32,000 bases of DNA from an uncultured Chloroflexia bacterium (GCA_963704755.1 OY969938.1:2490001-2522000); one strand, 5' to 3'; counted from the first letter of the stretch, positions 5,766 through 24,376 are shown. The notes: generated by a model from the sequence alone, not told the origin. Numbers and translations: made by a program.

Positions 5766-6176
5766 ATGCGTTTTCTGAAAGCCAAGTCCGCAATGGAAAT
5801 GTTGGAAGCAGCCATCACCACACCGATCGCGGTGCTGGTGATGCTGGCTATCGTCAACCTGGGCATGGTCGTCTACGGCCAGCAGGCCGTGCAGGCAGCC
5901 GCCCGCCAGGGAGCCCGCATGGGAAGCGTGGCCCAGCAGTGCGCCGCCTGTTACGCACTGTCCTCGGCCCGCCAGGCAATCGAGGATGCCGAACTGGTCC
6001 AGGACCCGGCCGTGTCCGTGCTGGCACCGGGCGGGTCGGCCGGCAGCCTGCTGCAGATCCGGGTCAGCGGCTCGATCCCCAATTACCTGGCGCCCCTGAC
6101 CAGCCTGTTCCCCGGCTTGCCCGGCGATACCTTCCAGGTCTCGGCCGATGCGACCTTCCGTCAGGAGGGCTGGTGA
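5766..6176 (+). CDS. TadE-like pseudopilin
   Basis: GGGAGG precedes ATG 5766. The N-terminus SAMEMLEAAITTPIAVLVMLAIVNLGMVVYG fits the TadE N-terminal pattern. Confidence 0.7.
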   Translation: MRFLKAKSAMEMLEAAITTPIAVLVMLAIVNLGMVVYGQQAVQAAARQGARMGSVAQQCAACYALSSARQAIEDAELVQDPAVSVLAPGGSAGSLLQIRVSGSIPNYLAPLTSLFPGLPGDTFQVSADATFRQEGW

Positions 6177-6607
6177 TGATCCGCTCCAGGCGTGCCTACT
6201 CGATGACCTTCTGGGCGGTGTTCTTCGGCTTTGTACTGGTGCCGGCTTTCGCCATGTCCATCGAGCTGGGACGCTATTTCTACGCCCGGGCAGAGATCGC
6301 CAAGTCGGCTGATGCTGGCGCAGTGGCGGCGGCGGCAGAGATCAACCAACGCGTCTTCCAGGACAGCGGCGACCTGGTCCCCACTGAAAAGACATGGAAC
6401 AACGCTCAGACGTATGCCTCGTTAAACAATTCCGCGCTGGCCGCGCGGGGCATCCACGCTTATGTCACCGGCATCTCGATTGACCCGGACGCCGATACCG
6501 TTACGGTGACGGTGTCGGCCGACCTCTCGCTGCTTTTCCCTTCGGTGGTGCCGCAGGTGATCGTCAGCGAAACGGGCACCGCCCAGGTGCGGGCTTTCTC
6601 CAGGTAA
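6176..6607 (+). CDS. TadG-like pilus-assembly protein (N-terminal TadG-type helix)
   Basis: The ATG overlaps the previous TGA. MTFWAVFFGFVLVPAFAMSIELGRYFYARAEIAKSADAGAVAAAAEI fits the TadG-like N-terminal domain pattern. Confidence 0.65.
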   Translation: MIRSRRAYSMTFWAVFFGFVLVPAFAMSIELGRYFYARAEIAKSADAGAVAAAAEINQRVFQDSGDLVPTEKTWNNAQTYASLNNSALAARGIHAYVTGISIDPDADTVTVTVSADLSLLFPSVVPQVIVSETGTAQVRAFSR

Positions 6608-6822
6608 CCAATGGAGGAAGAACCTTTCAAATCCAGGCGGTTCTTGCTGGTACGCAGTGAGGACGAGAGCGGCGTCTCCGGAGTCGGGATCGTGGCCGAA
6701 GGGGTCCAGTTTCAGAGCGGGCGGGTGGTCATGGAATGGCAGGTGGCGCCGTACTCGATGGGGATCTATGGATCAATCGAGGAGGTTGTCGAGATCCACG
6801 GGCATGGAGGAAAAACAAAAGT
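6467..6822 (+). repeat. direct repeat copy A (3' end of the TadG-like gene plus the 74-aa ORF)
   Basis: Hand alignment to 18175-18530 at a constant offset of 11708 shows no indels and about 26 mismatches. Positions 6557-6759 carry a single mismatch (6685). Confidence 0.9.
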
Positions 6823-6835
6823 GATGGGCGCATAA
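6611..6835 (+). CDS. conserved hypothetical 74-aa protein (copy A)
   Basis: The ATG lies 3 nt after the TadG-like stop. A near-identical paralogue is at 18319..18546, and differences between the copies are mostly conservative. Confidence 0.55.
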   Translation: MEEEPFKSRRFLLVRSEDESGVSGVGIVAEGVQFQSGRVVMEWQVAPYSMGIYGSIEEVVEIHGHGGKTKVMGA

Positions 6836-7403
6836 GTCTGTATTATTATTCAGTCCGTTGAATTTATGAAAAAGGAAATCGGAAACAAGAAAATATATGC
6901 CATCAGCATATTCCCGTTTTTAAATAACCATGTAGGAGGATTAAATCCTTTATAGAATTATTCTTGTCTGCACATTTTCAATGGAGGCGGGGGTTGCCCT
7001 AAGTGCTATAATAAAATATCAATTTAGGTACGGTCAAATTTTTCGGCTCTGATTTACAGGTTATTCAAGACCTTTCAATTCACGATAGCGAACTTTCAAA
7101 CATTGTTCCTCTGGTTTTTAGCCCATAATCGCGTTTAGTATTACCGGGTTATTAGTAAAGCGAAAGTGTATATGTGTAATCTCTGGGGGAATGCACGATG
7201 GCTCCTAGTGTACGCGTAATAAAAAAAATACTATCCAATAGAAGCTACTACCCGAAGAATTTAGGTTGTGGTTTTTATAGCAGGTTGGTAGAAGAGTCTC
7301 GGATCTAAAGACCAAAGGTGAAATGCTATCAGCGCTCTTCGAATGCAATCAGGCTTGAGGGGGGTACTGTATGCTTGCACAGTTAAAGCCAGGGAGAACT
7401 TAG

Positions 7404-8033
7404 ATGAAAGGTTTTTTTTACTGGTTAATACAAGAAGTAAGTGCCTTTACCTGGGTCTTAACTATCGGGCTCGACCTGTTATGGAACCTTGTGGATGGGG
7501 CATCGATATTTACAGGCGTAGGGATCATTTGTTATCCCTTTGTGATGATGTCCATTTTTGCAATCTGTTTCATCACAGTTGCATTCGTTCAACATTACAT
7601 TTCATTTGACAAGTGGAAAATGGCATTAAAAAAGGCAACCATTTTCGGGTTGATTGCAGCCCTGCCGTTTTCAATCGTTAGCTTTCTGGCCGGTGGAATC
7701 GGATTACTTGTTCGAGAGTCGATGGGACAGGACTACACCTATATTTTTGGTAAGTTGGGCCTCAATTACCGGGAGCTAGAAAAGATCATCAAGCAAAAAG
7801 CAGTAGCAACCAGAATCTCATACGGAAACTGGCGGGATATTTCAATGGACACTGCAATCAATACCTTTGAGCAGGAGGGAAAGATCTCGCGCCAGGAAGC
7901 ACACGAACTGCACCAATTAAGATTGGCCAGAAACCAGGCTCACCATGAGGAGACGCCGGCCGATCTATTTGGCTGGGTGGAATTTTCCGAAGGATTGCTG
8001 CAAAAATACCAAAACAGGTTTGGAACTGTTTGA
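7404..8033 (+). CDS. membrane protein with a C-terminal DUF4145/HEPN-like domain
   Basis: About 3-4 hydrophobic helices occupy the first ~105 aa. The C-terminal part reads INTFEQEGKISRQEAHELHQLRLARNQAHHEE, an R-x4-6-H motif in the DUF4145 pattern ...lR..RN.aaH. Confidence 0.55.
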   Translation: MKGFFYWLIQEVSAFTWVLTIGLDLLWNLVDGASIFTGVGIICYPFVMMSIFAICFITVAFVQHYISFDKWKMALKKATIFGLIAALPFSIVSFLAGGIGLLVRESMGQDYTYIFGKLGLNYRELEKIIKQKAVATRISYGNWRDISMDTAINTFEQEGKISRQEAHELHQLRLARNQAHHEETPADLFGWVEFSEGLLQKYQNRFGTV

Positions 8034-8082
8034 GAATGGGTGATTAAATCAGGTTGAAAAAGACATCAAAAAGGAGGAACAA

Positions 8083-8310
8083 ATGGCTGGCACACATTTT
8101 ATATCTATCGAAACTCTCAATGGGATAGTTACGAAGGTCGACGGGCAGATATCGACAAGCGTTCAAGCCTGGTGGAAAGGAAATTCTGATTTCGTTAACC
8201 AAGAAGTCACAGGCGTTATGAATAAATTCGCAGATGAAGGTTATGTTCTGATTAATAATGAAGAAATAGATGGGAGGATAATATATAGGTTCGAGCATAA
8301 GGATTACTAA
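8083..8310 (+). CDS. hypothetical 75-aa protein
   Basis: A strong SD, AAGGAGG, lies 5 nt before ATG 8083. I recognise no motif. Confidence 0.55.
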   Translation: MAGTHFISIETLNGIVTKVDGQISTSVQAWWKGNSDFVNQEVTGVMNKFADEGYVLINNEEIDGRIIYRFEHKDY

Positions 8311-8419
8311 AATTCTTTGGGAATAGTTAGGTCTATAATTCTCCCTGGATTTTACTGATAAGGGTTGAATATTCGCCTAATAGGTTTTTGGCAATTCGAG
8401 CAGTGCAAGGAAAGTTTAT

Positions 8420-8644
8420 TTGTCCAAATACTCTCCATTACAGGGGTTCCTCGAAGGATTGCCAAGCAAGCAGAGAGAAATTACCTTGACATTCGAGTGG
8501 ATCGAGGAAATCCTTGATGGCTCTTTACCCAGGTCCACACACGGTTACAGTGCCTGGTGGTCAAATGAAACAGATGGGCAACACGTCCAGGCTAATAGCT
8601 GGGTCGGCGCCGGCTGGAAGGTGAAAAAATGTAGATCAGGTTAG
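8420..8644 (+). CDS. small conserved-domain protein (SKYxPL...LsFxeIExIL...LPxS...WWxN...aGW pattern)
   Basis: TTG start. MSKYSPLQGFLEGLPSKQREITLTFEWIEEILDGSLPRSTHGYSAWWSNE...WVGAGWKV resembles a recurrent small domain of unknown function that I recall seeing near R-M and defence genes. Confidence 0.5.
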   Translation: MSKYSPLQGFLEGLPSKQREITLTFEWIEEILDGSLPRSTHGYSAWWSNETDGQHVQANSWVGAGWKVKKCRSG

Positions 8645-8770
8645 GGGATGGGTAAAGGTTGTGAGGGCAATTGTAAGATAATCTGTAAGAAAATGGCATA
8701 ATTATTGCGTTAATTTAATTATTGATTGGGTTATAGTAAATGGATACTAAGGTATTGATAAGGGGCAATT

Positions 8771-10582
8771 ATGGCTAATATTGATCAACGTATCGATAAA
8801 TGGAAAAAGCGATTACTGGACTTAGGAAAGAGAAATAGGCTCATAAATTATCGGGAAACAAAACGATCGAATATAAGAATTATTTCCCCTGAGATTGGTA
8901 ATTTATATTCCCGTTTGGTCTTAAAAGAAGAATTATTGGGGTTCCCATATAGTATTGAGGAAGATTTCGAGAATTCGAGCGAAATCGAACTAAATACAAC
9001 GGTAAAAGGCGATTTGCTAACAGACCGCAACATAAGAGAACAGCAAAAAACCTTACGGAATTTAAGATCCAAAGCGAAAACAGCGATAGAAGAGCAAGGT
9101 GTAAATATTCTTTACGTTGCATTTGGTTTCCTCCAATGGTATGAGAGTACAGCATCATCGCAATTGATAACATCGCCTGTTGTTTTAGTTCCCGTGAATT
9201 TGATCCTCAAATCAATAGCCGATCCCTTTATGCTTGGATTGCATGATGATGAAATTGTTGTTAACCCCACACTGTTATTTAAACTGGAGAATGATTTTGG
9301 GTTATCCATCCCTGAATTTGAAGGAGAAGATAATCATATCGTTAAGTATTTAGACCAAATTAAGAGCATAGTAAACAAAAATAAATGGGATGTTACTTTC
9401 GATGTTGGATTAAGTTTGTTTTCGTTCTTGAAAATAAATATGTACAACGACCTAGAAAAAAATAAGAATAAGATTGTAGCCAATCCAATTATCAAAGCTA
9501 TTGCGGGTGATAAATCTAGCGTCCAGTCTCTACCGGAAGAATATAACAACTTTGACCATGATAAAAATACAAAACCGATAGATACATTTCAGGTAGTAGA
9601 TGCGGATTCAAGCCAGCAGGATGCAATTTTGTTTTCAAAAAAAGGAATTAGTTTCGTTTTGCAGGGACCTCCAGGGACTGGTAAGAGTCAAACCATTACA
9701 AATATAATTGCCGAAGGACTTGCAGACGGAAAAAAAATCTTATTCGTCTCCGAAAAAATGGCTGCTTTGGAGGTAGTATTAAAACGAATTTCCTTAGCGG
9801 GACTCGATGACTTTTGCCTAACATTACACAGTCACAGAGCGAACAAAAAAGAAATTATTAAGGAACTTGGTAAAACCCTTTACCTGGACAAATTTGCAAT
9901 ACAAGGTACAGCTCTAAACCAATTGGAGGCTCTCAGAAGGGATAGAGAAAAACTTAATCAGTATAATCTTGAGTTACATAGCCCTTGTCCGCCCTTAGGA
10001 AAATCAATATTTGAAATAAATGGTCGATTAGCGAAATTGTTTGCTGCGCCTGACTTTATATTCTCTATAGATAATGTAAGTAACACATCTCCAGAAAAGT
10101 TGGATTCGTACACATTTGCACTAAATGACTTTTCAAAAACTATTGGAAAAATGACAACCGATTTTTCAGAGAATCCTTGGCGAAGTTGTCATGTCCAAAA
10201 TGTGACCCATGAGCTTCGTCATGATATTGAAACAAATCTGCAAAGTCTAGTCCCAACTTTCCGTTTCCTGGCTGATATGGCTTATACAACACTGCATGAA
10301 TTGGATCTAGACATCGAACTATCTCTCAAGAATATACCTTTATTAATTGAGGTGTTAAATATTGTTTCAAAGTCCCCCATAGTTCCTTACGAATGGACTT
10401 TTAAAATGAATATTTCTCACCTACTCGAAGATGCCGAGAAATATAGTTTGTTAAAAAAAGAATATGATTCTTTACAACAGGAACTTTCACAAAAGCACAA
10501 CGATAACTTTTTTAAGATTGAAGCCGGCAAAGTTATAAATAACTTCTCATCGTCGGTAGAATCCGCAAAGGGTATACTTTAA
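8771..10582 (+). CDS. DUF4011 / SF1 (Upf1-like, AAA_11) helicase-nuclease, segment 1 of 3
   Basis: The N-terminus IDKWKKRLLDLGKRNRLINYRETK is DUF4011-like. Walker A is LQGPPGTGKSQTITNII. The frame is lost between 10560 and 10582. Confidence 0.8.
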   Translation: MANIDQRIDKWKKRLLDLGKRNRLINYRETKRSNIRIISPEIGNLYSRLVLKEELLGFPYSIEEDFENSSEIELNTTVKGDLLTDRNIREQQKTLRNLRSKAKTAIEEQGVNILYVAFGFLQWYESTASSQLITSPVVLVPVNLILKSIADPFMLGLHDDEIVVNPTLLFKLENDFGLSIPEFEGEDNHIVKYLDQIKSIVNKNKWDVTFDVGLSLFSFLKINMYNDLEKNKNKIVANPIIKAIAGDKSSVQSLPEEYNNFDHDKNTKPIDTFQVVDADSSQQDAILFSKKGISFVLQGPPGTGKSQTITNIIAEGLADGKKILFVSEKMAALEVVLKRISLAGLDDFCLTLHSHRANKKEIIKELGKTLYLDKFAIQGTALNQLEALRRDREKLNQYNLELHSPCPPLGKSIFEINGRLAKLFAAPDFIFSIDNVSNTSPEKLDSYTFALNDFSKTIGKMTTDFSENPWRSCHVQNVTHELRHDIETNLQSLVPTFRFLADMAYTTLHELDLDIELSLKNIPLLIEVLNIVSKSPIVPYEWTFKMNISHLLEDAEKYSLLKKEYDSLQQELSQKHNDNFFKIEAGKVINNFSSSVESAKGIL

Positions 10583-10631
10583 TTCTTCCATTTATGACAC
10601 AGAAGAAAAAATTATTTCATCTGCAAATGAA

Positions 10632-11147
10632 TTGATTATTCTATTGGGAAAAGCGAAAGACAATTTTGTTCTTCTAGATCAATTATGTCAAGAAGGGGTC
10701 AAGATCTTTGGAATTGATGAAATTGAAAATATCAACGGTCTGAAAAACTTTGCAAAATTATTAGATTCGATATTAACAAGCCCTAAACCATCAAGTGAAT
10801 GGTTTGATGAGACTAAGTTCAAAATATTGAAACGGGTAGTGCCAGAAGCATGGGAAGCCTTCGAGACAATTAAAAATAAGACAAATATTATCCTTACATC
10901 TTACAACCGCGAAATCTTTGATCTTGAGTACACAGAAATGCTAACAAGATTTAAGACAGAATATACAACGATATTTAAATTATTCATGAAAAAATATTGG
11001 TCAGATAAAAAAATCATTAAAGCCCTTTATAAAGTTTCTGATAGCAAACTGGATGACCCTGCTATTATTAATGTATTAACTGAACTGTCATCCATAAATG
11101 AGAAAAGACGCTGGATCGAAGAAAATGAGAATTTATTAAAACTTTAA
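10632..11147 (+). CDS. same helicase-nuclease gene, segment 2 of 3 (frame actually open from 10560)
   Basis: This frame reads through from 10560 (NPQRVYFNSSIYDTEEKIISSANELIILLGK...). It is a helical insert region between the helicase motifs. Confidence 0.7.
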   Translation: MIILLGKAKDNFVLLDQLCQEGVKIFGIDEIENINGLKNFAKLLDSILTSPKPSSEWFDETKFKILKRVVPEAWEAFETIKNKTNIILTSYNREIFDLEYTEMLTRFKTEYTTIFKLFMKKYWSDKKIIKALYKVSDSKLDDPAIINVLTELSSINEKRRWIEENENLLKL

Positions 11148-11272
11148 GCGGTGCACATTATGCAAGAGATTACACTGATTGGGTAGGTTTCAGCTTTGCG
11201 CTTGAAAATTTCAAAAATATAATCGATTATTTTTATCCATCAATAATTTCAACAAAAACAAGAGAAATCCTG

Positions 11273-14200
11273 ATGGAAAATATATCAATTAACGATATAA
11301 AAACGATTAACGAGAAAATTAATGGAATTTTAGAAACAGACATTCTTAACGTTTTTATCCAAAATCTGGCAATCTCCGATAATGTCGAAGACCTTCAACT
11401 TTTTGAAATTATCAATAATTTGAAGTCTGCGTTATCAATAATGAGGATGTTAGAAAATATATACGAGATCCTTACAAACAGTTGTTTAAAAGAACTAAAT
11501 TACGGTGAATTAATCAAAGATCTATCAAAACTTGGAAGAATGCAAGAGATAGCGAATCAAGTTGGAATCCAATATGAGCATCTAAGAATAAAATATTTAT
11601 TCTTCTTCAATGGAATTGACACTGATTGGGGCAGGATTTTGGATTCTCTTGCATGGACAAATGAATTTAAAAAAATAATAGAAAAATTCCGCCTATCAAA
11701 AGTTTGCGTAAAAAATACTTGTGAAGATGAAAAATTTATCACAAACGCCAAACAACGATTAAGAGAAATCACATCGAAGATTAATGAAATTAATACAGAT
11801 CTGCATTGGTACTTTTCATTATTTGATGATAAGGATGAACTATTAACTACAAATCTCCATACTTTCCTGACCCGGTTAGAGGATTGTTCAAACAGTCTTT
11901 CAAGCTTAGAGGAATGGATTGATTTTCGAAGCAGTCGAGAAAAATGTAGGGATATTGGCCTATCTGATTATATTGAGAAAATTCAAATCCATAAGGTAAA
12001 TAAAGAAACTATCGTACCAGCATTTCTTAAGCGATTTTATAGATTGTGGCTCGACGCAATACTGCCAAATTATCCCGCCGTATATTCTTTCAGAAGGCGT
12101 ACTCAGGATGAATTAATTGAAGAATTTAAAAACCTGGATAAAAAGCAGTTTATCATCGCTAAATCTAGAATCCGTCAAAAATTAGCCACAAAGCTACCAA
12201 ATTTAAATCAATTTTCTTCAGCAGTCGATGAAGTAGGTGTACTAAAACGAGAATTAAATAAGCAACGAAGATTTATGCCTTTACGTAAACTTTTCAGAGA
12301 AATCCCCAATCTCCTATTAACACTTAAACCTTGCTTGATGATGTCGCCTCTTTCTGTTAGCTTGTTTTTGAATGCAGATATTTATAAATTTGACATTGTT
12401 GTTTTTGATGAAGCATCACAAGTTTGTACAGAAGATGCAATTGGTGCGATATTGAGGGGATCTCAAGTCATCATTGCTGGCGATACCAATCAGCTTCCCC
12501 CCACGAATTTCTTCTCAGCCAGCACATCTGATTCCGATTTTGATAATAACGATTTGGATGAAGATGATTATGATGACACTGACGCATATGAATCGGTACT
12601 TGACGAGGCCGTTACAGTGCTGCCAGAACGAACGCTTCGATGGCATTATAGAAGTCATCATGAGCATTTAATCGCGTTTTCAAATGTAAAAATCTATCGA
12701 AATAACCTAATTACATTTCCATCCCATATAAATAATGAACCAAACAACGGAGTGGAATATATTTATGTTCCTGATGGGGTGTATGACAGAAGTGGGAAAA
12801 GAAACAATATTAATGAGGCTAATAAAGTCGCTGAACTCGTTTTCGAACATATTCAAAATTTTCCCAGTCGTTCTTTGGGTATCGTGACATTTAGTGAAGC
12901 TCAACAGCAAGCAGTCGAAATGGCGATTAGACAAATGAGGTTAGAAAATCAGCAGTTTGAAACCTTTTTTTCAGAGGATCGAGAAGAGGACTTTTTTGTA
13001 AAGAACTTGGAAAATGTACAGGGGGATGAAAGGGATACCATTATTTTTAGTATTGGTTACGCTAAAGACCATAATGGTGTTATGCATATGAATTTTGGAC
13101 CTCTCAGTAAAAGTGGGGGCTATCGGCGGTTAAATGTTGCCATTACTCGTGCAAAATATAACGTCAAGCTAGTTGGCTCAATTGAGCCAACGGATATCAT
13201 TATTGAAAATACAAACTCCGAAGGAGTAAAAATGCTTCGGTCCTATATTGAATTCGCCAAGGATGGCGAAAGTGTATTGCAAAGAGAATTATCCATCCCG
13301 GATTCAATATATACGGATTCTCCATTCGAAGATTCAATTTATCAATTCTTGGTATCCAAAGGTTATTCAGTCGCTACACAAGTTGGTTGTTCCGGATACA
13401 GGATAGATTTGGCCATTAAGCACCCGACATTAAGTGGGAGATTTGTAATAGGAATAGAGTGTGATGGTGCCTCTTATCACTCCGCTCGAACGGCGAGGGA
13501 ACGTGATAGGCTACGCCAGGCTGTTCTTGAAGATAATGGGTGGAAAATATATCGAATTTGGTCCACTGATTGGATAAAGGATCCTCTTACCGAGGGGAAG
13601 AAATTGACCACAGCAATAGATTATGCAATTACTAGCTATAACAAAAATGGTTTCACCATAAAAAAAAACGAGAATGGTGAAATAAAAACCACGAAGGAAT
13701 TTAGCTCGTCAATTGAAGTGCCTATAAAGGGAAACTCCATTACTAAAATTGATAATAATAATCCATACAATTTTGATTATTATGTTCTAGCAGATATTAA
13801 AAAAGTAAGAAGAAGCAACGATGATATTCAATATTTAACCGATATTTTGAGATATGTGATTGAGCAAGAATACCCCATCCATTTTGAATTACTTTGTAAA
13901 CGAGCTACCTACCTCTTTGGAAATCAAAAAGCCACAGTAAAAATAAGGAGAAATGTCAAATATATTATCAATGGATATTTACAAAATGAGGTAATTTTTC
14001 GTAATGGTTTTTATTGGCCAAAAAGAAATTCTAAGATCAAAGTGAGGATTTCTAATTCCCCCGGTACAGAAAGAAAATTGGAATACATTTGCTCTGAGGA
14101 AATAGCAGAAGCAATGTTCGTGATATCTGGTCATAGTTTTGGTATAAAAAAAAGTGATTTATTCGTCGCAACAGCTCGTGCTTTTGGATTTAACCGTACT

Positions 14201-14305
14201 GGAGGGCATATAGTTGTGGCGATGGAAACTGCATTTGATTTATTAATAGGTACAGGCAGAGTTGATTATATAGATGAAAAAGTAATTATTAAACCAAATT
14301 CCTAG
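11273..14305 (+). CDS. same helicase-nuclease gene, segment 3 of 3 (frame open from 11129): AAA_11/AAA_12 motifs II-VI, Vsr/DUF559-like endonuclease, DUF3320-like tail
   Basis: Helicase motifs: FDIVVFDEASQV (motif II), IIAGDTNQLPPT (III), RWHYRSHHEHLIAFSN, VQGDERDTIIFS, GYRRLNVAITRAK (VI). The endonuclease core is GYRIDLAI...IGIECDGASYHSARTARERDRLRQAVLEDNGWKIYRIWSTDW. The C-terminal YPIHFELLCKR... region follows. Confidence 0.85.
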   Translation: MENISINDIKTINEKINGILETDILNVFIQNLAISDNVEDLQLFEIINNLKSALSIMRMLENIYEILTNSCLKELNYGELIKDLSKLGRMQEIANQVGIQYEHLRIKYLFFFNGIDTDWGRILDSLAWTNEFKKIIEKFRLSKVCVKNTCEDEKFITNAKQRLREITSKINEINTDLHWYFSLFDDKDELLTTNLHTFLTRLEDCSNSLSSLEEWIDFRSSREKCRDIGLSDYIEKIQIHKVNKETIVPAFLKRFYRLWLDAILPNYPAVYSFRRRTQDELIEEFKNLDKKQFIIAKSRIRQKLATKLPNLNQFSSAVDEVGVLKRELNKQRRFMPLRKLFREIPNLLLTLKPCLMMSPLSVSLFLNADIYKFDIVVFDEASQVCTEDAIGAILRGSQVIIAGDTNQLPPTNFFSASTSDSDFDNNDLDEDDYDDTDAYESVLDEAVTVLPERTLRWHYRSHHEHLIAFSNVKIYRNNLITFPSHINNEPNNGVEYIYVPDGVYDRSGKRNNINEANKVAELVFEHIQNFPSRSLGIVTFSEAQQQAVEMAIRQMRLENQQFETFFSEDREEDFFVKNLENVQGDERDTIIFSIGYAKDHNGVMHMNFGPLSKSGGYRRLNVAITRAKYNVKLVGSIEPTDIIIENTNSEGVKMLRSYIEFAKDGESVLQRELSIPDSIYTDSPFEDSIYQFLVSKGYSVATQVGCSGYRIDLAIKHPTLSGRFVIGIECDGASYHSARTARERDRLRQAVLEDNGWKIYRIWSTDWIKDPLTEGKKLTTAIDYAITSYNKNGFTIKKNENGEIKTTKEFSSSIEVPIKGNSITKIDNNNPYNFDYYVLADIKKVRRSNDDIQYLTDILRYVIEQEYPIHFELLCKRATYLFGNQKATVKIRRNVKYIINGYLQNEVIFRNGFYWPKRNSKIKVRISNSPGTERKLEYICSEEIAEAMFVISGHSFGIKKSDLFVATARAFGFNRTGGHIVVAMETAFDLLIGTGRVDYIDEKVIIKPNS

Positions 14306-14360
14306 TTTTTGAAATACCCTGTGTAATAATAGTGGTGAACACTTTAGATTTACCAAATCC

Positions 14361-16685
14361 ATGCTATCCAATAAAGTTGCCGAGGGGATCATGCTTCAAC
14401 AAGTGGTTAAAGATCGGATCTTAAAATCCTACGAAAATAAACAAAATTCGGGTGATCTCCCATCCGCCCAACAACTCGAAACATACTATCGATTATTCCG
14501 GCAAAGATTTGGCCCTAATACCCTCTCGGGCTTGGATGGCGAGCCCTTACTCAACCTAATGTACGATCTTGGCAATCGAGACAGCCTGGTGTATTGGCTG
14601 GAATACAAAAACGATGCTGAATTCCCGGCAATTTTTGGCAGTATCGCCGGCGGGAGTGCTTTGAAATATGGAATCTTTCGTCGAAGAGAAACAGGGGCTT
14701 GGACAATCGGATCACCTCAAAAGCAGGTTGAAATATCGGTTGCTGAAGCCATAGAAATCGCTCGGCGGAATTGGGATCAATTGATGAAAGGTGTTTTCAT
14801 TCTTCAAAACCTTCCTGATTCATCCGAGGATGCAGTTTATTTCAAACTGCAAGAAGATTTACACAAAGAAGCGCCAGGTGTCCAAGATTCCCTTTGGGGA
14901 CACAAGTATTTTCACCTGCTATTTCCGGAAAAGCTGGACACTTTTCATATGGAGAATTTACAGCAGTTTCATTTGATCAAGTTACTTCAAATGCCTCCTG
15001 AGAAAACCGGCCGCTATACATGCGCCGGCCGGTTCGTGGCCCTGGCACGTGAATGTGGCTTATCGATGAATATCCTGACGACTGTTCTCAACGATATCGA
15101 TGGGCGGCTTTATCGCTACTGGAGAATGGGAACACATGGAGGAGAAGACAACAGAAGTTATTGGAGCGAAATGGAACAGGGGAGTTACGTTTCGATTGGC
15201 TGGGATAAATTGGGAGATCTGTCTTGGCTTGAATTCAATAAAGAATTGAAAGAAAAATTTTTTAAATTGGTTTTGGATAAATACAAGAAAGATCCAGCCG
15301 TAACCGGTGGCACAGTCTCAAAAATTTTCAATTTTGTGGTTGGTATGCAAGAAGGTGATATCGTTCTAGGTGCTGATGGTAGACGCATTCAAGGTGTTGG
15401 CAGGGTTGTAGGGGGATATGAGTATCAACCCAATGGCGAATTTCCACATCACCGCCAGGTCGAATGGCTCACATTAGATCCTTGGGAATTACCTCAAACA
15501 GAGGGTCTTCAGTTTGCTATATACGCAATGAAGAAGCCTGAAAATTTAATTGCTATTGAAGAACGACTCCTCCAATATCCCGGAAAGCCCAGAAAACCTT
15601 TTATTGAAAGTGAGGGAGGTGGTTCAAGACGAACGGTACATCTTGAAGGAATATCTGGCCGGATTCAAGCTGTTTTGGATCGGAAGAAGCAAATCATTCT
15701 ATATGGCCCTCCAGGTACCGGAAAAACGTATTGGGCCAATCGCACTGCGAAAGATTTAGGGGCTTATTCTATGTTCGGAAAGTCTTTTTCAGAAATAATC
15801 GAAACCGAGAAACAGAAAATTCTAGGAAAATTTGGAGAAAAAAACGGGGTTGTCAGGCGTTGCACTTTCCATCCGGCTTATGGGTATGAAGATTTCATCG
15901 AGGGTTACCGACCTGTCTCGACCAACGGTCAATTGAGTTTCGAGAAACGCTCGGGGATATTTAAAACCATTTGTGAGGATGCACAAAAAAATCCTAATCA
16001 ACCTTATTATTTGATAATCGATGAAATCAATCGCGGAGATTTACCACGGATATTTGGGGAGCTGCTGACATTGCTGGAAAAGGATAAAAGAGGGCAGTCT
16101 ATCATTCTTCCTCTCAATGGAGATCTCTTTCAGGTCCCAGAAAATGTTTTCGTGATCGGCACGATGAACACTGCTGACCGTTCGATTGCTCTGCTAGATA
16201 CAGCTCTTCGCAGGAGGTTTGGCTTTTTAGAGCTAATGCCCGATTCGAGTTTATTGAACTTATCCATTGAGGGGTTACCATTAGGCCCTTGGCTGGATGC
16301 ATTGAATGAACGGATCCGTACCCATATCGGAAAGGATGCGCGAAATTTACAAATTGGGCATGCTTATTTTTTTGAGGGAGAGAAACCAATTAACGACAAG
16401 TTACGTTTTGTCCGAGTTTTACGCGAAGACATATTACCCTTGTTGGAAGAATATTGCTATGAAGATTATGACAACTTAAGTGAAATTCTTGGGGATCAGA
16501 TTGTTGATGCAAAAAGCCAAAGATTTAGGGAGGAGGTTCTATCACCAGAGCGTTGGGATCAATTGCTCATTGCTCTGCTTGGCCCAAATCGCGAAGTAAC
16601 AACCTCTAAAGAAGTAATTCAAACCCAGCAAAATGAACTCGAAGATCAATTAGACGAGGATACCCTAGATGTTGAATCCAATTAA
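14361..16685 (+). CDS. mcrB: McrB-like AAA+ GTPase with a long N-terminal putative DNA-reader region
   Basis: Motifs: ILYGPPGTGKTYWA, LIIDEINRGDLPRIFGELLTLLE, VIGTMNTADRSIALLDTALRRRFGF. An alternative start is ATG 14391, behind GAGGGG. Confidence 0.85.
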   Translation: MLSNKVAEGIMLQQVVKDRILKSYENKQNSGDLPSAQQLETYYRLFRQRFGPNTLSGLDGEPLLNLMYDLGNRDSLVYWLEYKNDAEFPAIFGSIAGGSALKYGIFRRRETGAWTIGSPQKQVEISVAEAIEIARRNWDQLMKGVFILQNLPDSSEDAVYFKLQEDLHKEAPGVQDSLWGHKYFHLLFPEKLDTFHMENLQQFHLIKLLQMPPEKTGRYTCAGRFVALARECGLSMNILTTVLNDIDGRLYRYWRMGTHGGEDNRSYWSEMEQGSYVSIGWDKLGDLSWLEFNKELKEKFFKLVLDKYKKDPAVTGGTVSKIFNFVVGMQEGDIVLGADGRRIQGVGRVVGGYEYQPNGEFPHHRQVEWLTLDPWELPQTEGLQFAIYAMKKPENLIAIEERLLQYPGKPRKPFIESEGGGSRRTVHLEGISGRIQAVLDRKKQIILYGPPGTGKTYWANRTAKDLGAYSMFGKSFSEIIETEKQKILGKFGEKNGVVRRCTFHPAYGYEDFIEGYRPVSTNGQLSFEKRSGIFKTICEDAQKNPNQPYYLIIDEINRGDLPRIFGELLTLLEKDKRGQSIILPLNGDLFQVPENVFVIGTMNTADRSIALLDTALRRRFGFLELMPDSSLLNLSIEGLPLGPWLDALNERIRTHIGKDARNLQIGHAYFFEGEKPINDKLRFVRVLREDILPLLEEYCYEDYDNLSEILGDQIVDAKSQRFREEVLSPERWDQLLIALLGPNREVTTSKEVIQTQQNELEDQLDEDTLDVESN

Positions 16686-18003
16686 TCAGGTAGAGCAATC
16701 ACAACAGGTAAACTTGTATTTATCAGAATGGACCATAGCTACTCCTGAAACTCATCCAGTTTTAGAGGGTTTTTCTTTCGAGAATGAGCTTCCTGCTCGA
16801 CAGATGGCTCAACGGCTAAGTGGATCAAGTCAAGTAGAGTTCTTGGAATTGACTAACGGGTTGGAAATTCGCACAAATTCAGTGGTAGGCAGCATTCGTC
16901 TTGGTAACCTATCCTTAACAATTACTCCGAAAATTAACGGGTTACCTTTATTCCGATTGATCCGCTTTGCTTATGGATTACGGGATCTGGAATTCTTTAC
17001 TGCGCAGAATTTCAGCAATCAATACCTGGCTTTCCAGGATTTATTGATTCTCCAACTCGTTTTGGAAGTTCAAGAGCTTTTTAGTCGAGGATTATTGCGC
17101 AACTACATTCGGAAAGAGGAGAAGCTTGCCAGCCCGGTTGGGAGAATAAATTTTCAACAAATTGCGAAACAAGGCGGATTGGTAGAAGCATCATTACCTT
17201 GTACAAATTCCATCCGCCTGGAAAATTGTCTTCATAATCGTGTAATCCTCTCCGGGTTAATTTTGGCTAACCAGTTTACTAGAGATATTTCTTTAAAAAG
17301 TTCTACCCGTCAGCTTGCCAAATTATTTATCCAAAGCATCGAAAAGGTGCGGTTGAATTTTGACATCCTCAGGCAGGTTGAGCGCGAATTGAACCGGCTC
17401 ACCGAGGCGTACAATCCTGCCTTGAGACTGATAGCATTATTGTTGGGTAATATTGGTGTATCAACTGATGAAGACCGTAATCAAGTACAGGTAAATGGCT
17501 TCCTCTTTGATATGAACCATTTCTTCCAGGCTTTGCTTTCAAGGTTGCTTAATAACTACCTGGATGGGTATGAGGTTGAAGATGAGCATAAACTAAAAGG
17601 ACTTCTAGCATTCGTACCCGGATATAAATTACCCGGTCGGCTTGACGCGATGCCCAGGCCAGATTTTGCCATATTCGAGAAAGGAAAGCTACTTTCGCTA
17701 TTCGATGCCAAGTACCGGGACCTTTGGAACACTGGTCTGCCTAGAGATATGCTCTATCAGCTCATCGTGTATGCACTAAGTCAGAAGGTAGAACGAAAAG
17801 CCACAATCCTTTATCCAAGCCTGGACGAAATTTCCAAGGATGCGATTATTCAAATCAATGAACCCATACAAGGTTCTGCAAATGGACATATTATTTTACG
17901 CCCCGTCAATTTACATAGAATGGAAAGCATAATCGTTGAAAAAAGAACCGATGAATTGAAATCATTCACTCACCAATTGATTTTTAAGGAACTTCTTAAT
18001 TAG
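16669..18003 (+). CDS. mcrC: McrC-like PD-(D/E)xK nuclease subunit
   Basis: It overlaps the mcrB end by 17 nt. The nuclease core is PDFAIFEKGKLLSLFDAKYRDL. Size and position are typical of McrC. Confidence 0.8.
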   Translation: MLNPINQVEQSQQVNLYLSEWTIATPETHPVLEGFSFENELPARQMAQRLSGSSQVEFLELTNGLEIRTNSVVGSIRLGNLSLTITPKINGLPLFRLIRFAYGLRDLEFFTAQNFSNQYLAFQDLLILQLVLEVQELFSRGLLRNYIRKEEKLASPVGRINFQQIAKQGGLVEASLPCTNSIRLENCLHNRVILSGLILANQFTRDISLKSSTRQLAKLFIQSIEKVRLNFDILRQVERELNRLTEAYNPALRLIALLLGNIGVSTDEDRNQVQVNGFLFDMNHFFQALLSRLLNNYLDGYEVEDEHKLKGLLAFVPGYKLPGRLDAMPRPDFAIFEKGKLLSLFDAKYRDLWNTGLPRDMLYQLIVYALSQKVERKATILYPSLDEISKDAIIQINEPIQGSANGHIILRPVNLHRMESIIVEKRTDELKSFTHQLIFKELLN

Positions 18004-18174
18004 ACCCCAACTAAACAAATTTGCTGAAATTATCTTCACCAATACAAGCTGTAAATTAACGGCGAAGATGGCAAGCATGGATCGGATTCTTACATTTCAA
18101 AGGCTTAAATTCTCAAACTCGTATTTCGCTAATTTTCTGAACTCTTAATAACATTTATCATCATCTCCTTCCTT

Positions 18175-18315
18175 ACCGGCATCTCGATTGATCCGGATGC
18201 AGATACCGTAACGGTCACGGTCTCCGCCGACCTCTCGGTACTTTTCCCCTCGGTGGTACCGCAAGTGATCGTCAGCGAAACGGGCACCGCCCAGGTGCGG
18301 GCTTTCTCCAGGTAA
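18175..18315 (+). pseudogene. orphan 3' fragment (46 codons plus stop) of a TadG-like gene
   Basis: It reads TGISIDPDADTVTVTVSADLSVLFPSVVPQVIVSETGTAQVRAFSR*. There is no upstream coding continuation because the flank is A+T-rich island DNA. Twelve nt differences from copy A give only one amino-acid change. Confidence 0.75.
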
Positions 18316-18530
18316 CCAATGGAGGAAGAACCTTTCAAATCCAGGCGGTTCTTGCTGGTACGCAGTGAGGACGAGAGCGGCGTCTCCGGAGTTGGGATCG
18401 TGGCCGAAGGGGTCCAGTTTCAGAGCGGGCGGGTGGTCATGGAATGGCAGGTGGCGCCGTACTCGATTGGAATTTATGGGTCAATCGAGGAGGTGATTGA
18501 GGTCCATGGGCATGGGGGAAAGACAAGGGT
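18175..18530 (+). repeat. direct repeat copy B
   Basis: See copy A. It aligns at a constant offset of 11708 without indels. Confidence 0.9.
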
Positions 18531-18546
18531 CTTACGATTGGCATGA
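18319..18546 (+). CDS. conserved hypothetical 75-aa protein (copy B)
   Basis: Paralogue of 6611..6835. The C-terminus differs (KTRVLRLA versus KTKVMGA). Confidence 0.55.
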   Translation: MEEEPFKSRRFLLVRSEDESGVSGVGIVAEGVQFQSGRVVMEWQVAPYSIGIYGSIEEVIEVHGHGGKTRVLRLA

Positions 18547-18806: not shown

Positions 18807-20340
18807 ATGCCTAAGAACAATCAAAAAAGTAAAAACGGGAACGGCGCTGCGCTGGGAATTGAACACGAACTATGGGAGGCGGCCGACAAGCTGCGCGGCC
18901 ACCTGGACGCGGCCGATTACAAGTCGGTGGTGCTGGGGCTGATCTTTCTCAAGTATGTCTCGGACATGTTCGAGCAGGTGCGTGCCCGTGTGGAGGAAGA
19001 GGGCTTGGACGATCCCGAGGACCGCGACGTGTACCTGGCGGAGCGGACCTTCTGGGTGCCCAGGGACGCGCGCTGGAAGGTCCTGCAGGACAATGCCAAG
19101 CAGGAATCGATCGGCAACCGGATCGACCAGGCCATGGAGGCCATCGAGCGGGACAACCCCTCGTTGAAAGGCATGCTCCCCAACAATTATGGTCGCGCCA
19201 CGCTGGACAAGCGCCGGCTGGGCGACCTGGTCGACCTGGTCAGCAACAAGATCAACTTTACTGACGAGGAAAGCCGCAAGCAGGATACGCTTGGGCGGGT
19301 GTACGAATACTTCCTCTCGCAGTTCGCCAGCCAGGAAGGCCGCAAGGGCGGCGAGTTCTACACGCCGCGCTCGGTGGTGCGTGTGCTGGTAGAAATGCTG
19401 GCTCCCTATAAAGGACGGGTCTTCGACCCGTGCTGTGGTTCGGGCGGGATGTTCGTGCAAAGCGAGAAGTTCGTCGAGGCGCACGGCGGCCGGGTGGGCG
19501 ACCTGTCGGTGTACGGACAGGAATCCAACCCCAACACCTTCAAGCTGGCCAGGATGAACCTGGCCATTCGCGGCATCGAGGGCGACCTGGGCAAGGAGCC
19601 GGCCGACTCGTTCCACCGCGACCAGCATCCCGACCTGAAGGCCGACTTTGTGCTGGCAAATCCGCCCTTCAATATGAGCGATTGGGGCGGCGATCTGCTG
19701 CGCGAGGACAAACGCTGGCAGTACGGCCTGCCACCGGCCGGCAACGCCAACTTCGCCTGGGTGCAGCACTTCATCCACCACCTCTCGCCCAACGGGGCGG
19801 CCGGCTTTGTGCTGGCCAACGGCAGTATGTCGAGCAACACCTCCGGAGAAGGCGAGATCCGCAAGAACATCATCGAGGCCGACCTGGTGGACTGCATGGT
19901 GGCCCTGCCGGGGCAGTTGTTCTACAGCACGCAGATCCCGGTGTGCCTGTGGTTTTTAGCCAGGAACAAGAAGAACCGCGGCGGGCAGACCCTGTTCATC
20001 GACGCGCGTAAGCTGGGCACACTGACCGACCGGGTGCACCGCGACCTGAGCGACGAGGACATCGCCCAGATTGCCGGCACCTTTCACACCTGGAAGAAGG
20101 GCCAGGGCTACGCAGATGTACCCGGCTTTTGCAAATTGGTTTCGATTGAAGAAATCCGTGCGCAGGGTTACGTGCTCACGCCTGGGCGTTATGTAGGTGC
20201 AGCGGAACTGGAGGAAGACGACGAGCCATTTGGTGAAAAGATTGCAAGATTTAACAAGAGAGTTGGAAGAGCAGTTTGAAGAAGGGAGGAGATTAGAAGA
20301 CCTTATTAGTAAAGGGCTAAAAAAACTTGAATATGAATAA
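18807..20340 (+). CDS. hsdM: type I R-M N6-adenine DNA methyltransferase HsdM (frame breaks near 20250; annotated stop 20279, repaired stop 20340)
   Basis: The N-terminus is [33 protein letters not shown]. Motif I is [11 protein letters not shown] and motif IV is LANPPFN. After ...FGEKIAR the +1 frame reads [29 protein letters not shown], a typical HsdM C-terminal helix that overlaps the hsdS ATG. Confidence 0.9.
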
Positions 20341-21490
20341 AGAATGGGAATTGGTTAGGATTGGAGAAATTTGCGAAGCCATCTTCGATGGACCACACGC
20401 CACGCCTAAGAAAACAACCAAAGGCCCAATTTTTCTCGGTATTTCGAATCTTCAAAATGGAAGAATCGACCTTTCGGATGTCGATCACCTTTCGGAAGAT
20501 GATTTTATCAACTGGACCCGAAGAGTTACTCCCCGAGAAAATGATGTAGTTTTTTCATATGAAACACGCTTGGGTGAAGCAGCAATTGTTCCTAAAGGCC
20601 TGAGGTTTTGTCTGGGTCGGCGTATGGCATTGATACGTCCTAATACACAAAAAGTAGATCCCCGCTTTTTGCTTTATTCATACCTGGGGCCAGAGTTTCA
20701 ACAGACCCTGCAGGCACGAACAGTTCACGGAAGCACAGTAGATAGAATTCCGCTTATCGAATTTCCCGATTTTCCAATTTCTATACCTCCTCTTTCTGAA
20801 CAACGCGCCATTGCAGGGATTCTCGGTGCGCTGGACGACAAGATCGAACTCAACCGACGCATGAACCGCACGCTCGAGTCCATTGCACAGGCGGTGTTTC
20901 GAGAATTAATGAAGGATGAAGACGGAAAGATAACGACTGGTAAGGTTGGAGAAGAATACAATTTGACAATGGGACAATCGCCGCCAGGTGAAACTTATAA
21001 CGAAGAAGGTGTAGGGACTCCTTTCTATCAAGGGCGTCGAGATTTCGGCTTTAGGTATCCAGAAAATCGCGTTTATTGCACTGCCCCCACAAGGTACGCA
21101 AAATCGGGTGATACCCTTGTTAGCGTTAGGGCTCCTGTTGGTGATATTAATATGGCAAAGGAAGATTGTACAATCGGCAGAGGAGTTGCTGCAATCAGGC
21201 ATAAAACAGGTAGTCGTTCTTACACTTACTATGCAATGAAATACCTCGAAAACGATTTTAAGAGTTTTGAAGCAGAAGGAACAGTTTTTGGCTCAATAAA
21301 TAAAGCAGATTTCCAAAATCTTGAAATTAGCATCCCTACAATTGAACAGGTACAGAAATTTGAAGAAATTTGCTTCCCGATCGACCAAATGATCGAGAAC
21401 AATGAAAAAGAAACCCACACGCTGGCTAATCTGAGAGATAGTCTGCTGCCAAAGTTGATGCGAGGCGAAGTGCGTGTGAAGGATGTCTGA
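20333..21490 (+). CDS. hsdS: type I R-M specificity subunit HsdS (two target-recognition domains)
   Basis: WELVRIGEICEAIFDGPH...IPPLSEQRAIAGILGALDDKIELNRRMNRTLESIAQAVF is the central conserved region, and ...LANLRDSLLPKLMRGEVRV is the C-terminal conserved region. The gene is A+T-rich, unlike hsdM and hsdR. Confidence 0.9.
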   Translation: MNKEWELVRIGEICEAIFDGPHATPKKTTKGPIFLGISNLQNGRIDLSDVDHLSEDDFINWTRRVTPRENDVVFSYETRLGEAAIVPKGLRFCLGRRMALIRPNTQKVDPRFLLYSYLGPEFQQTLQARTVHGSTVDRIPLIEFPDFPISIPPLSEQRAIAGILGALDDKIELNRRMNRTLESIAQAVFRELMKDEDGKITTGKVGEEYNLTMGQSPPGETYNEEGVGTPFYQGRRDFGFRYPENRVYCTAPTRYAKSGDTLVSVRAPVGDINMAKEDCTIGRGVAAIRHKTGSRSYTYYAMKYLENDFKSFEAEGTVFGSINKADFQNLEISIPTIEQVQKFEEICFPIDQMIENNEKETHTLANLRDSLLPKLMRGEVRVKDV

Positions 21491-21593
21491 ACTATGATTG
21501 GAATGATTTTTGGATGGACTATGAGTGAACCGGGACGCATGGATAGGACCTTTGCATTCAGCTAAATCGTGATCCCAGACCAGGGGAAAAGGC

Positions 21594-22019: not shown

Positions 22020-22061
22020 AATCATGGAAATCATAGTTCAAGACAATGCGTACATGCTACG

Positions 22062-22101: not shown

Positions 22102-22103
22102 AA

Positions 22104-23842: not shown

Positions 23843-23873
23843 AACTGTTTTTTTGAGCAGGAGGGGTGGAATT

Positions 23874-24374: not shown

Positions 24375-24376
24375 CT

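What the first reader, a model, noticed from the sequence alone, without database searches (positions are those of the whole stretch)
6467..18530. 11.3-kb A+T-rich island flanked by 356-bp direct repeats that diverge by synonymous changes, with no integrase
Copy A (6467-6822) and copy B (18175-18530) align without indels. The central 203 nt (6557-6759) carry one mismatch.

The first 90 nt carry 12 mismatches that change only one residue of the TadG-like tail. The last ~60 nt are also diverged, with mostly conservative amino-acid changes.

Both copies therefore evolved under purifying selection in different lineages before being joined, and the identical core marks a crossover or gene-conversion tract. 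This points to acquisition by homologous recombination with donor DNA from a relative carrying the same tad-locus end. It does not look like site-specific integration. I saw no integrase, transposase or tRNA.
Basis: seen in the sequence. Interest (0 to 1): 0.7.

Follow-up and report, generated by a model that had tools for sequence, protein, structure and literature searches.

The report
Defence island inserted by single-crossover recombination
An 11.4-kb A+T-rich block of anti-phage defence genes sits between two 356-bp mosaic copies of the end of a pilus operon, a footprint that best fits a circular piece of foreign DNA recombining into the chromosome without its own integrase; the repeated gene belongs to a phage 'anti-CBASS' nuclease family.

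Summary
The two 356-bp copies (6467-6822, 18175-18530) align without gaps, with 12, 1 and 13 mismatches in the 90-nt left arm, 203-nt core and 63-nt right arm. They flank 11,352 bp of 38% G+C DNA in a 65% G+C Anaerolineae genome. The window holds no integrase, transposase or tRNA.

The island carries a McrBC-type restriction system and a frameshifted PDC-S37/Hhe-like helicase-nuclease.

The repeated 74/75-aa ORF belongs to the Acb5 family (anti-CBASS 5, a phage cGAMP nuclease). In three related genomes it is the syntenic last gene of the tad operon, followed by housekeeping genes. Those genomes show the empty site, and it contains no hsdM.

Comparison with the nearest relative indicates that copy A's left arm and copy B's right arm are resident. 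Copy B's left arm and copy A's right arm come from another lineage. That is a reciprocal-crossover pattern.

The best reading is Campbell-type (ends-in, gap-repair) homologous insertion of a circular DNA carrying a captured tad-Acb5 homology patch, at a recurrent insertion hotspot. A recombinase outside the window, a multi-step history and misassembly are not excluded. This is a well-documented example of a known kind, of moderate interest.

The parts
6176..6607 (+). TadG-like (Pfam Tad/PF13400) last pilin-like gene of the tad operon, 143 aa. Its last 47 codons lie in copy A.
   Evidence: Pfam hit. 80-81% aa identity and the same length in L151, L153 and L155.
6467..6822 (+). Direct repeat copy A. 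Left arm 6467-6556 (resident-like), near-identical core 6557-6759, right arm 6760-6822 (outlier lineage, shifted towards A+T).
6611..6835 (+). Acb5-family gene, copy A (74 aa). Four residues (M50, V60, I62, K70) are unique against copy B and all relatives.
   Evidence: Precomputed PF26761 Acb5 on all homologues. phrog_7499 at E 3.6e-25. 47% identity to the validated Acb5A, with R10/W38/H61 conserved. Polarity.
6823..18174 (+). A+T-rich island 1 (11,352 bp, G+C 0.382). No homologue of any of its genes in the related contigs retrieved.
   Evidence: No plasmid match.
7404..8644 (+). Three small island ORFs of unknown role: 209-aa membrane protein with a weak DUF4145 match, a 75-aa ORF, and a 74-aa DUF7662 protein.
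   Evidence: No recombinase domain.
8771..14305 (+). PDC-S37/Hhe-like helicase-nuclease (DUF4011, AAA_11, AAA_12, MTES_1575 REase, DUF3320), split into three ORFs by two frameshifts.
   Evidence: PADLOC PDC-S37 matches are colinear across the three ORFs. Pfam. Overlapping open frames at both breaks.
14361..18003 (+). McrBC-type type IV restriction pair: a 774-aa McrB-like AAA_5 GTPase with an N-terminal PDC-S02-like domain, and a 444-aa McrC.
   Evidence: Best non-self McrB homologue is only 68% identical.
18175..18530 (+). Direct repeat copy B. Left arm 18175-18264 is a dead TadG 3' fragment from the outlier lineage, with a unique V. Core 18265-18467. Right arm 18468-18530 is resident-like.
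18319..18546 (+). Acb5-family gene, copy B (75 aa), intact.
   Evidence: Closer than copy A to L001, L151 and L153.
18807..29131 (+). Type I R-M operon on the right of the repeat. G+C-rich hsdM and hsdR enclose an A+T-rich block holding hsdS, a PDDEXK_3 gene, DRT4 reverse transcriptase, a DSPc phosphatase and DUF6119/TIGR04141. Absent from the empty-site relatives.
30043..31682 (+). Rad52-family/SWIM recombinase and SSB, a recombination module of the mobile-element type near the window end.

Best explanation
Island 1 entered by one Campbell-type homologous recombination event.

A circular DNA (or a circle broken inside the homology, 'ends-in') carried about 11.35 kb of A+T-rich defence genes. 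It also carried a roughly 356-bp patch copied from the tad-operon end of a different, related lineage: the last 47 codons of TadG plus an Acb5-family gene. This patch paired with the resident TadG-Acb5 locus.

A single reciprocal crossover then inserted the whole circle and duplicated the patch. Gap repair or mismatch correction around the crossover made the central 203 nt of both copies the same. The outer arms kept their origin: copy A is resident left plus incoming right, and copy B is incoming left plus resident right.

The recombination machinery was supplied in trans, by host RecA or possibly a Rad52-type annealing protein such as the one at 30043-31251. The junction at 18174/18175 is the scar of the illegitimate event that first closed the circle.

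The 3' end of the Acb5 gene is a recurrent insertion point in this clade. The two repeats remain a substrate for looping the island out again.

Shown: the repeat anatomy, the two-lineage origin of the arms, their crossover polarity, the empty site in relatives, and the absence of mobility genes in the window.

Inferred: the circular intermediate, gap repair as the source of the core, the enzyme, and the order of events.
For: 1. Mismatches run 12/90, 1/203 and 13/63. L001 differs from both copies at 24/203 core positions, so the core is a conversion tract.
2. Copy B's TadG tail is non-coding here, yet it differs from copy A by 10 synonymous codons and one L-to-V codon. Both arms therefore evolved inside working genes in separate lineages.
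3. Polarity against L001. In the left arm L001 agrees with A at 5 sites and with B at 2. In the right arm it agrees with A at 2 and with B at 10 (Fisher p = 0.045). At protein level A's right arm has 4 residues not seen in B, L001, L151, L153 or L155. B's left arm has V where A and all four relatives have L. This is the reciprocal-crossover configuration.
4. Empty site. L151, L153/L154 and L155 have TadE-TadG-Acb5 followed by housekeeping genes, with nucleotide homology running more than 1.1 kb through and past Acb5. The window copies and L001 lose homology abruptly in the last Acb5 codons.
5. No integrase, transposase, tRNA or Rfam element was found in the window.
6. Background from papers. 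Many horizontal-transfer hotspots lack mobile-element genes and show excess homologous recombination in flanking core genes (PMC5635113). Rad52-like recombinases recombine diverged DNA (PMC3945230).
Against: - The polarity test rests on one close relative and few sites, and is marginal on its own (p = 0.045).
- No donor carrying island 1 next to an Acb5 gene was found. The best McrB homologue is 68% identical.
- No circular form and no read data are available.
- The island has no replication or transfer genes, so how a circle would form and travel is unexplained.
- The window ends at 32000, and the source genome could not be retrieved. An integrase or a third repeat copy further right is therefore untested.
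- Three different downstream sequences (A, B, L001) begin at the same position within about 3 nt. This could also point to a site-specific enzyme.
Confidence: 0.5

Rival explanations
1. Site-specific integration by a recombinase encoded elsewhere, either beyond the window or lost. The repeats would be attL and attR of a non-autonomous island. Known parallels are a cis-mobilisable element left by tandem accretion, or the integrase-less microcin H47 island.
For: The right boundary of homology is the same in three contexts: 6822, 18530 and L001 10210. This suggests a preferred insertion point at the 3' end of the Acb5 gene. Mobile-element genes (Rad52-like, SSB) lie to the right. The H47 island shows that a 13-kb island with long imperfect direct repeats and no integrase can excise and integrate using trans-acting functions (PMC3191183).
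Against: A fixed crossover point would leave host/element differences right up to that point. It would not leave a 203-nt tract identical in both copies while the nearest lineage differs by 12% there. A mobile element has no reason to keep a 141-nt dead fragment of the upstream TadG gene as part of its att site. No recombinase was seen in 32 kb.
Confidence: 0.15
2. A multi-step history without a circle. One version is a donor fragment (TadG tail, Acb5, hsdMSR and onward) joined illegitimately to the right end of a pre-existing island 1 and anchored by homology further right. Another is a local duplication followed by allelic replacements. Either way, later gene conversion between the two copies made the core identical.
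For: The hsdMSR/Rad52/SSB segment is itself non-ancestral relative to L151, L153 and L155. More than one insertion therefore happened here. The junction 18174/18175 is illegitimate in every model. Intrachromosomal conversion between 356-bp repeats is plausible.
Against: If copy A were wholly resident and copy B wholly incoming, both arms of one copy should stand in the same relation to L001. They stand in opposite relations: 5:2 against 2:10. This history needs at least three events where one suffices.
Confidence: 0.2
3. Assembly artefact. A separate 11.7-kb circular or strain-variant sequence shares the 203-nt core with the chromosome and was threaded into it by the assembler.
For: The closest relatives are all metagenome assemblies, and the source is a single 4.87-Mb contig of unknown assembly method. 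A loop attached through a shared identical segment would produce exactly this layout. Two frameshifts in the PDC-S37-like gene could hint at sequence errors.
Against: The repeat is short and its arms are distinguishable, so reads or read pairs longer than about 250 nt resolve it. The putative circle has no replication gene. The frameshifts are not in long homopolymers.
Confidence: 0.08

Closest known systems
Integrase-free horizontal-transfer / defence hotspots maintained by homologous recombination in flanking core genes (Oliveira et al. 2017, PMC5635113; core defence hotspots of Pseudomonas aeruginosa, PMC10250203)
   Same: Variable, compositionally foreign defence cargo sits between conserved genes. 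There are no mobility genes. There are signs of recombination in the flanking gene, and different cargo at the same spot in relatives (window islands, L001 island, empty sites).
   Different: Those models assume a double crossover in two different flanking genes and leave no duplication. Here one flank is duplicated as a mosaic direct repeat, which implies a single crossover with a circular molecule.
Microcin H47 genomic island of E. coli (PMC3191183)
   Same: A small island (13 kb against 11.4 kb) flanked by extensive imperfect direct repeats. It encodes no integrase or excisionase, and recombination occurs within segments of identity between the repeats.
   Different: Mobility of the H47 island was shown experimentally and is RecA-independent. 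Nothing is tested here. Here the repeats are a captured host gene segment with a long conversion tract.
Campbell-type single-crossover integration (suicide-vector or plasmid cointegrates, Hfr formation; ends-in gap-repair integration described in yeast) - from my own knowledge
   Same: The product has the same topology: a duplicated homology patch flanks the insert, the arms are in crossover configuration, and a converted central tract is expected from gap repair.
   Different: These are laboratory or plasmid examples. Here the insert is a defence island with no replicon and the event is inferred from sequence only.
Acb5 (anti-CBASS 5) phage nucleases (bioRxiv 10.1101/2025.07.12.664507)
   Same: The repeated 74/75-aa ORF has the family's Pfam assignment and is 47% identical to Acb5A. 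It keeps the three residues shown by mutation to be required, and has the same phage host distribution (Streptomyces, Bacillus, Haloarcula, Mycobacterium).
   Different: Here it is a chromosomal, syntenically conserved last gene of a tad pilus operon with host-like codon G+C, not a phage gene. No CBASS was seen nearby. Activity is untested.

Membership tests
Integrase-mediated genomic island / prophage / ICE | Encodes a tyrosine or serine recombinase (or DDE transposase) | tested here: not met
   No such domain in any island ORF or in the other ORFs scanned. Upstream tad genes were assigned by synteny only. Sequence beyond 32000 was not available.
Integrase-mediated genomic island / prophage / ICE | Short att repeats (about 10-60 bp), often at a tRNA or tmRNA gene | tested here: not met
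   The repeat is 356 bp with a 203-nt identical core. No tRNA or tmRNA was found.
Recombination-driven hotspot island (flanking-core-gene homologous recombination) | Same conserved flank with different or no cargo in related genomes | tested here: met
   Empty site in L151, L153/L154 and L155. A different A+T-rich island in L001. Two blocks in the window.
Recombination-driven hotspot island (flanking-core-gene homologous recombination) | Mosaic or phylogenetically discordant flanking gene | tested here: met
   The two arms stand in opposite relation to L001 (5:2 against 2:10, p = 0.045). Unique residues occur in A-right and B-left. The sample is small.
Campbell-type (single-crossover) insertion | Direct duplication of the homology patch, with arms in reciprocal configuration | tested here: met
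Campbell-type (single-crossover) insertion | Existence of a circular form, or excision regenerating a single hybrid copy | not testable with these tools
   Needs reads or PCR.
Acb5 (PF26761) anti-CBASS nuclease family | Sequence membership | tested here: met
   Precomputed PF26761 on both window copies and all 15 other homologues. phrog_7499 at E 3.6e-25. BLASTP to Acb5A at E 8e-19 and 47% identity. 161 phage genomes matched. The local Pfam copy lacks this model.
Acb5 (PF26761) anti-CBASS nuclease family | Residues R10, W38 and H61 of Acb5A, required for anti-CBASS activity | tested here: met
   They align to R15, W43 and H65 in both copies.
Acb5 (PF26761) anti-CBASS nuclease family | Homotetramer that cleaves 3'3'-cGAMP and blocks CBASS | not testable with these tools
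   Biochemistry is required. No solved structure is detectable by sequence.
McrBC type IV restriction | AAA+ (AAA_5) McrB GTPase next to a McrC nuclease subunit | tested here: met
   AAA_5 and NCBIfam McrB C-terminal match, but below the equivalog cut-off. PF10117 McrBC at E 3e-30. The two genes overlap by 17 nt.

The most novel reading that the evidence does not exclude
The island may be one of a class of integrase-free, recombination-dependent 'homology-patch' defence islands. Such an island would carry a captured fragment of a conserved host locus (here tad-Acb5) as a portable attachment site. It would loop out through its own direct repeats and re-insert by single crossover into any relative that has the locus, perhaps helped by relaxed Rad52-type recombinases.

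In addition, the anchor gene is a domesticated member of a phage anti-CBASS nuclease family, fixed as the last gene of a pilus operon. It could act as a resident cyclic-dinucleotide nuclease rather than as an anti-defence gene.
Probability: 0.15. Interest if true: 0.75.

Novelty: new member of a known kind. Interest (0 to 1): 0.42.

Why it matters
About half of bacterial gene-gain hotspots carry no recognisable mobile element, and how cargo gets in is mostly inferred statistically. Here a single locus preserves a readable footprint: mosaic repeat arms, a conversion tract, and empty sites in relatives. It points to a single-crossover insertion of defence genes by homologous recombination rather than by an integrase. 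The repeats also predict that the island is unstable and can loop out.

Separately, a family described only as a phage anti-CBASS nuclease turns out to be a conserved chromosomal gene at the end of a tad pilus operon. In other Chloroflexota it forms part of SSB-Acb5-ParA modules. This widens where such genes should be looked for.

Tried and rejected
- **Source genome.** Exact-protein look-ups failed for both Acb5 copies, for P0001 and for the Rad52-like protein. The region beyond 32000 could not be read. The genome is not among the GTDB representatives.
- **'The TadG-tail plus Acb5 module is itself mobile.'** I considered this because L001 has the module next to an ABC transporter. I rejected it. 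L152, from a sister sample of the same study as L001, shows a tad locus broken in TadB. L001's left boundary is therefore probably a rearrangement scar rather than the edge of a mobile module, although it is not shown that the two contigs come from one genome.
- **Homology continuing past the repeat.** A shared 11-mer, GGGGGTTGCCC, downstream of both copies scores no better than shuffles.
- **Donor search.** The best non-self McrB-like homologue is 68% identical. There is no plasmid match to the island. No close Acb5 relative turned up in JGI metagenomes (67% at most) or viral contigs (61% at most). The Rad52-like protein has no viral relative by this method.
- **In-place divergence after a local duplication.** Rejected, because the dead TadG fragment shows almost only synonymous differences.
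- **Other scans.** att-like hairpins, promoters and terminators at the junctions showed nothing beyond chance. Rfam found nothing.
Full report
**1. Observation**

A self-comparison of the window finds one long direct repeat. Alignment and direct counting define it as 6467-6822 and 18175-18530: 356 nt, no indels, 26 mismatches.

Identity is at chance level immediately outside both ends. The two downstream regions share nothing beyond what shuffled sequence gives.

The 11,352 bp between the copies has G+C 0.382, against 0.655 for the left flank.

In the left arm, 10 of the 11 differing codons are synonymous and one is L to V. In the right arm, 8 codons are synonymous and 4 are conservative replacements. 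After that the last 4-5 codons of the small ORF diverge completely.

There is no tRNA or tmRNA and no Rfam family. No integrase or transposase domain was found in any ORF scanned.

**2. Gene content**

| Coordinates | Content |
|---|---|
| 1-6607 | tad/Flp pilus operon: CpaF, TadB, TadC, prepilin peptidase, TadE, and a 143-aa TadG-like gene at 6176-6607 |
| 6611-6835 and 18319-18546 | Acb5-family ORF, copies A and B (74 and 75 aa); copy A starts 3 nt after the TadG stop codon |
| 7404-8644 | Three small ORFs: weak DUF4145, unknown, DUF7662 |
| 8771-14305 | PDC-S37/Hhe-like helicase-nuclease (DUF4011, AAA_11/12, MTES_1575 nuclease, DUF3320), split into three ORFs by two frameshifts |
| 14361-18003 | McrB-like and McrC type IV restriction pair |
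| 18807-29131 | Type I R-M operon. hsdM and hsdR are G+C-rich (GC3 0.80 and 0.82). They enclose an A+T-rich block: hsdS, a PDDEXK_3 gene, a DRT4 reverse transcriptase, a phosphatase-like protein and a DUF6119/TIGR04141 protein |
| 30043-31682 | Rad52-family/SWIM recombinase and SSB |

Island 1 is thus a small defence island with no mobility genes.

**3. The repeated ORF is an Acb5-family gene**

- All 17 homologues found, including the two window copies, carry the precomputed Pfam family PF26761 'Acb5'.
- Acb5 (anti-CBASS 5) was described in 2025 as a phage homotetrameric enzyme. It cleaves 3'3'-cGAMP into 2'3'-cyclic mononucleotides. R10, W38 and H61 are required for its anti-defence activity (bioRxiv 10.1101/2025.07.12.664507).
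- The window protein is 47% identical to Acb5A (E 8e-19). The three residues align to R15, W43 and H65.
- It matches phrog_7499.
- It matches 161 phage genomes, with the host spectrum reported for Acb5: Streptomyces, Bacillus, Haloarcula and Mycobacterium.

**4. Host and relatives: the empty site**

CpaF places the host in the Anaerolineae. It is 75-85% identical to CpaF from Bellilinea, Leptolinea and uncultured relatives.

Three independent related contigs carry the same tad operon: L151, L153/L154 (GCA_034434155.1) and L155. In each it ends TadE, TadG, Acb5. It is followed by a 120-124-aa gene, a 62-66-aa gene, polyprenyl synthase, a HisKA_3 kinase and a response regulator. Among these three, nucleotide homology runs for more than 1.1 kb through Acb5 and beyond.

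The Acb5-like gene is therefore a syntenic chromosomal gene of this clade. The ancestral site holds neither island 1 nor hsdMSR. None of the relatives' downstream genes occurs in the window.

The nearest relative by nucleotide identity is L001, at 79-87% over 6335-6818. It has a TadG 3' fragment and Acb5, followed by a different A+T-rich island of at least 10 kb. That island starts at the same position as the window junctions. Its left boundary is probably a rearrangement scar. L152, from a sister sample of the same study, shows a tad locus broken within TadB, although it is not shown that the two contigs come from one genome.

The last codons of Acb5 are therefore a recurrent insertion point.

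**5. Origin of the arms**

Copy B's TadG tail cannot be translated as part of a gene, yet it differs from copy A almost only at synonymous sites. If it had diverged in place, most changes would fall in the unconstrained copy, and about three quarters would be non-synonymous. The two versions therefore diverged inside working genes in two lineages.

The core is not conserved between lineages, since L001 differs at 24 of 203 positions. The chance of at most 1 mismatch at that rate is 2e-10. The core is therefore a recent conversion or crossover tract.

L001 can serve as a third sequence at the sites where A and B differ:

| Arm | L001 agrees with A | L001 agrees with B |
|---|---|---|
| Left | 5 | 2 |
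| Right | 2 | 10 |

The difference between the arms gives Fisher p = 0.045.

Protein comparisons agree. A's right arm has M50, V60, I62 and K70, where B, L001, L151, L153 and L155 share other residues. B's left arm has V where A and all four relatives have L.

So A-left and B-right belong to the resident lineage, and B-left and A-right to an incoming one. This is the configuration produced by one reciprocal crossover.

**6. Mechanism**

One event explains every feature. A circular molecule carried island 1 plus a TadG-tail/Acb5 homology patch. It inserted by a single crossover in the Campbell manner. If the circle was broken or gapped inside the homology, repair from the chromosome makes the centre of both copies identical. 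That is the classical ends-in, gap-repair outcome (my own knowledge).

The junction 18174/18175 is the illegitimate join that closed the circle.

The enzymes would act in trans. One candidate is host RecA. Another is a relaxed single-strand-annealing recombinase, since Rad52-like proteins recombine diverged DNA (PMC3945230) and one is encoded at 30043-31251. The link to that gene is speculation.

The general setting is known. Many transfer hotspots lack mobile-element genes and show excess recombination in flanking core genes (PMC5635113).

**7. Rivals**

- **Site-specific recombinase in trans.** The common right boundary fits this, and the integrase-less H47 island is a precedent (PMC3191183). 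It does not explain a 203-nt identical tract, or a dead TadG fragment inside the 'att' site.
- **Multi-step history.** This would be an illegitimate join of a donor fragment carrying hsdMSR, or a duplication followed by replacements, and then conversion. It is possible, but it predicts arms of one lineage per copy, which is not what is seen.
- **Assembly artefact.** A loop threaded in through the shared core cannot be excluded without reads. The repeat is short and its arms are distinguishable, and the loop has no replicon.

I give these roughly 0.15, 0.20 and 0.08. The Campbell-type reading gets 0.5.

**8. Novelty and interest**

The island is a new example of known kinds: an integrase-free hotspot island, and an island with long imperfect direct repeats.

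Less common is a readable single-crossover footprint with lineage-discordant arms. The identity of the anchor gene is also unusual. A phage anti-CBASS nuclease family member is fixed as the last gene of a pilus operon and duplicated around a defence island.

In 19 other genome loci, mostly Chloroflexota, the Acb5 homologue is followed by a ParA-like gene. In 9 loci it is preceded by SSB. One such locus is on an annotated plasmid. The family is therefore also common on plasmid-like elements.

Interest is moderate. The mechanism is inferred from sequence only and rests on few informative sites.

Noticed in passing
window 6611-6835 and 18319-18546; L151 16288-16518; L153 16324-16524; L155 16333-16548: A member of the phage Acb5 (anti-CBASS 5) nuclease family is the syntenically conserved last gene of the tad pilus operon in an Anaerolineae clade. 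It has host-like codon G+C (GC3 0.68-0.72) and the three functional residues intact. No CBASS genes were seen nearby.
   Followed up: partly
L002-L028 (e.g. L004 7106-7489 SSB, 10001-10195 Acb5, 10433-11275 ParA-like); L003 is on plasmid p4228-RoL: In 19 other genome loci, mostly Chloroflexota, the Acb5 homologue is followed within 200-500 nt (up to about 1.2 kb in three loci) by a ParA-like gene. In 9 loci an SSB gene lies 1.3-4.7 kb upstream. This looks like a plasmid or conjugative-element module.
   Followed up: partly
window 18807-29131: The type I R-M operon is a compositional chimera. hsdM and hsdR have GC3 0.80 and 0.82. hsdS (0.38) and an embedded block are A+T-rich. The block holds a PDDEXK_3 gene, a DRT4 reverse transcriptase (GC3 0.28), a DSPc-like phosphatase and a DUF6119/TIGR04141 protein. 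It looks like a second cassette swapped in between conserved genes.
   Followed up: partly
window 8771-14305 (breaks near 10560-10582 and 11128-11147): The PDC-S37/Hhe-like helicase-nuclease is split into three ORFs by two frameshifts, with overlapping open frames at each break. This is either recent pseudogenisation or sequence error. The breaks are not in long homopolymers.
   Followed up: partly
window 21488-21524 and 22004-22040: 37-nt inverted repeats (81% complementary) bracket the 141-aa PDDEXK_3 gene (21594-22019), as if it were a small inserted cassette.
   Followed up: no
window 30043-31251 and 31278-31682: A Rad52-family recombinase with a SWIM zinc finger sits next to an SSB gene. 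This is a recombination module of the mobile-element type, and the region right of the type I R-M may belong to a larger integrated element that runs off the window.
   Followed up: partly
L152 11259-11939 and L001 9761-9997: In sister metagenome samples holding the nearest relative, one contig (L152) has the tad operon truncated within TadB and followed by an ABC transporter. Another (L001) has a TadG 3' fragment with a 36-nt internal deletion next to another ABC transporter, followed by Acb5 and a different A+T-rich island. It is not shown that the two contigs come from one genome.
   Followed up: partly
window 14361-16685: The McrB-like protein carries an N-terminal region (residues about 265-371) that matches PADLOC PDC-S02 models. 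This is presumably a modified-base reader domain different from that of E. coli McrB.
   Followed up: no
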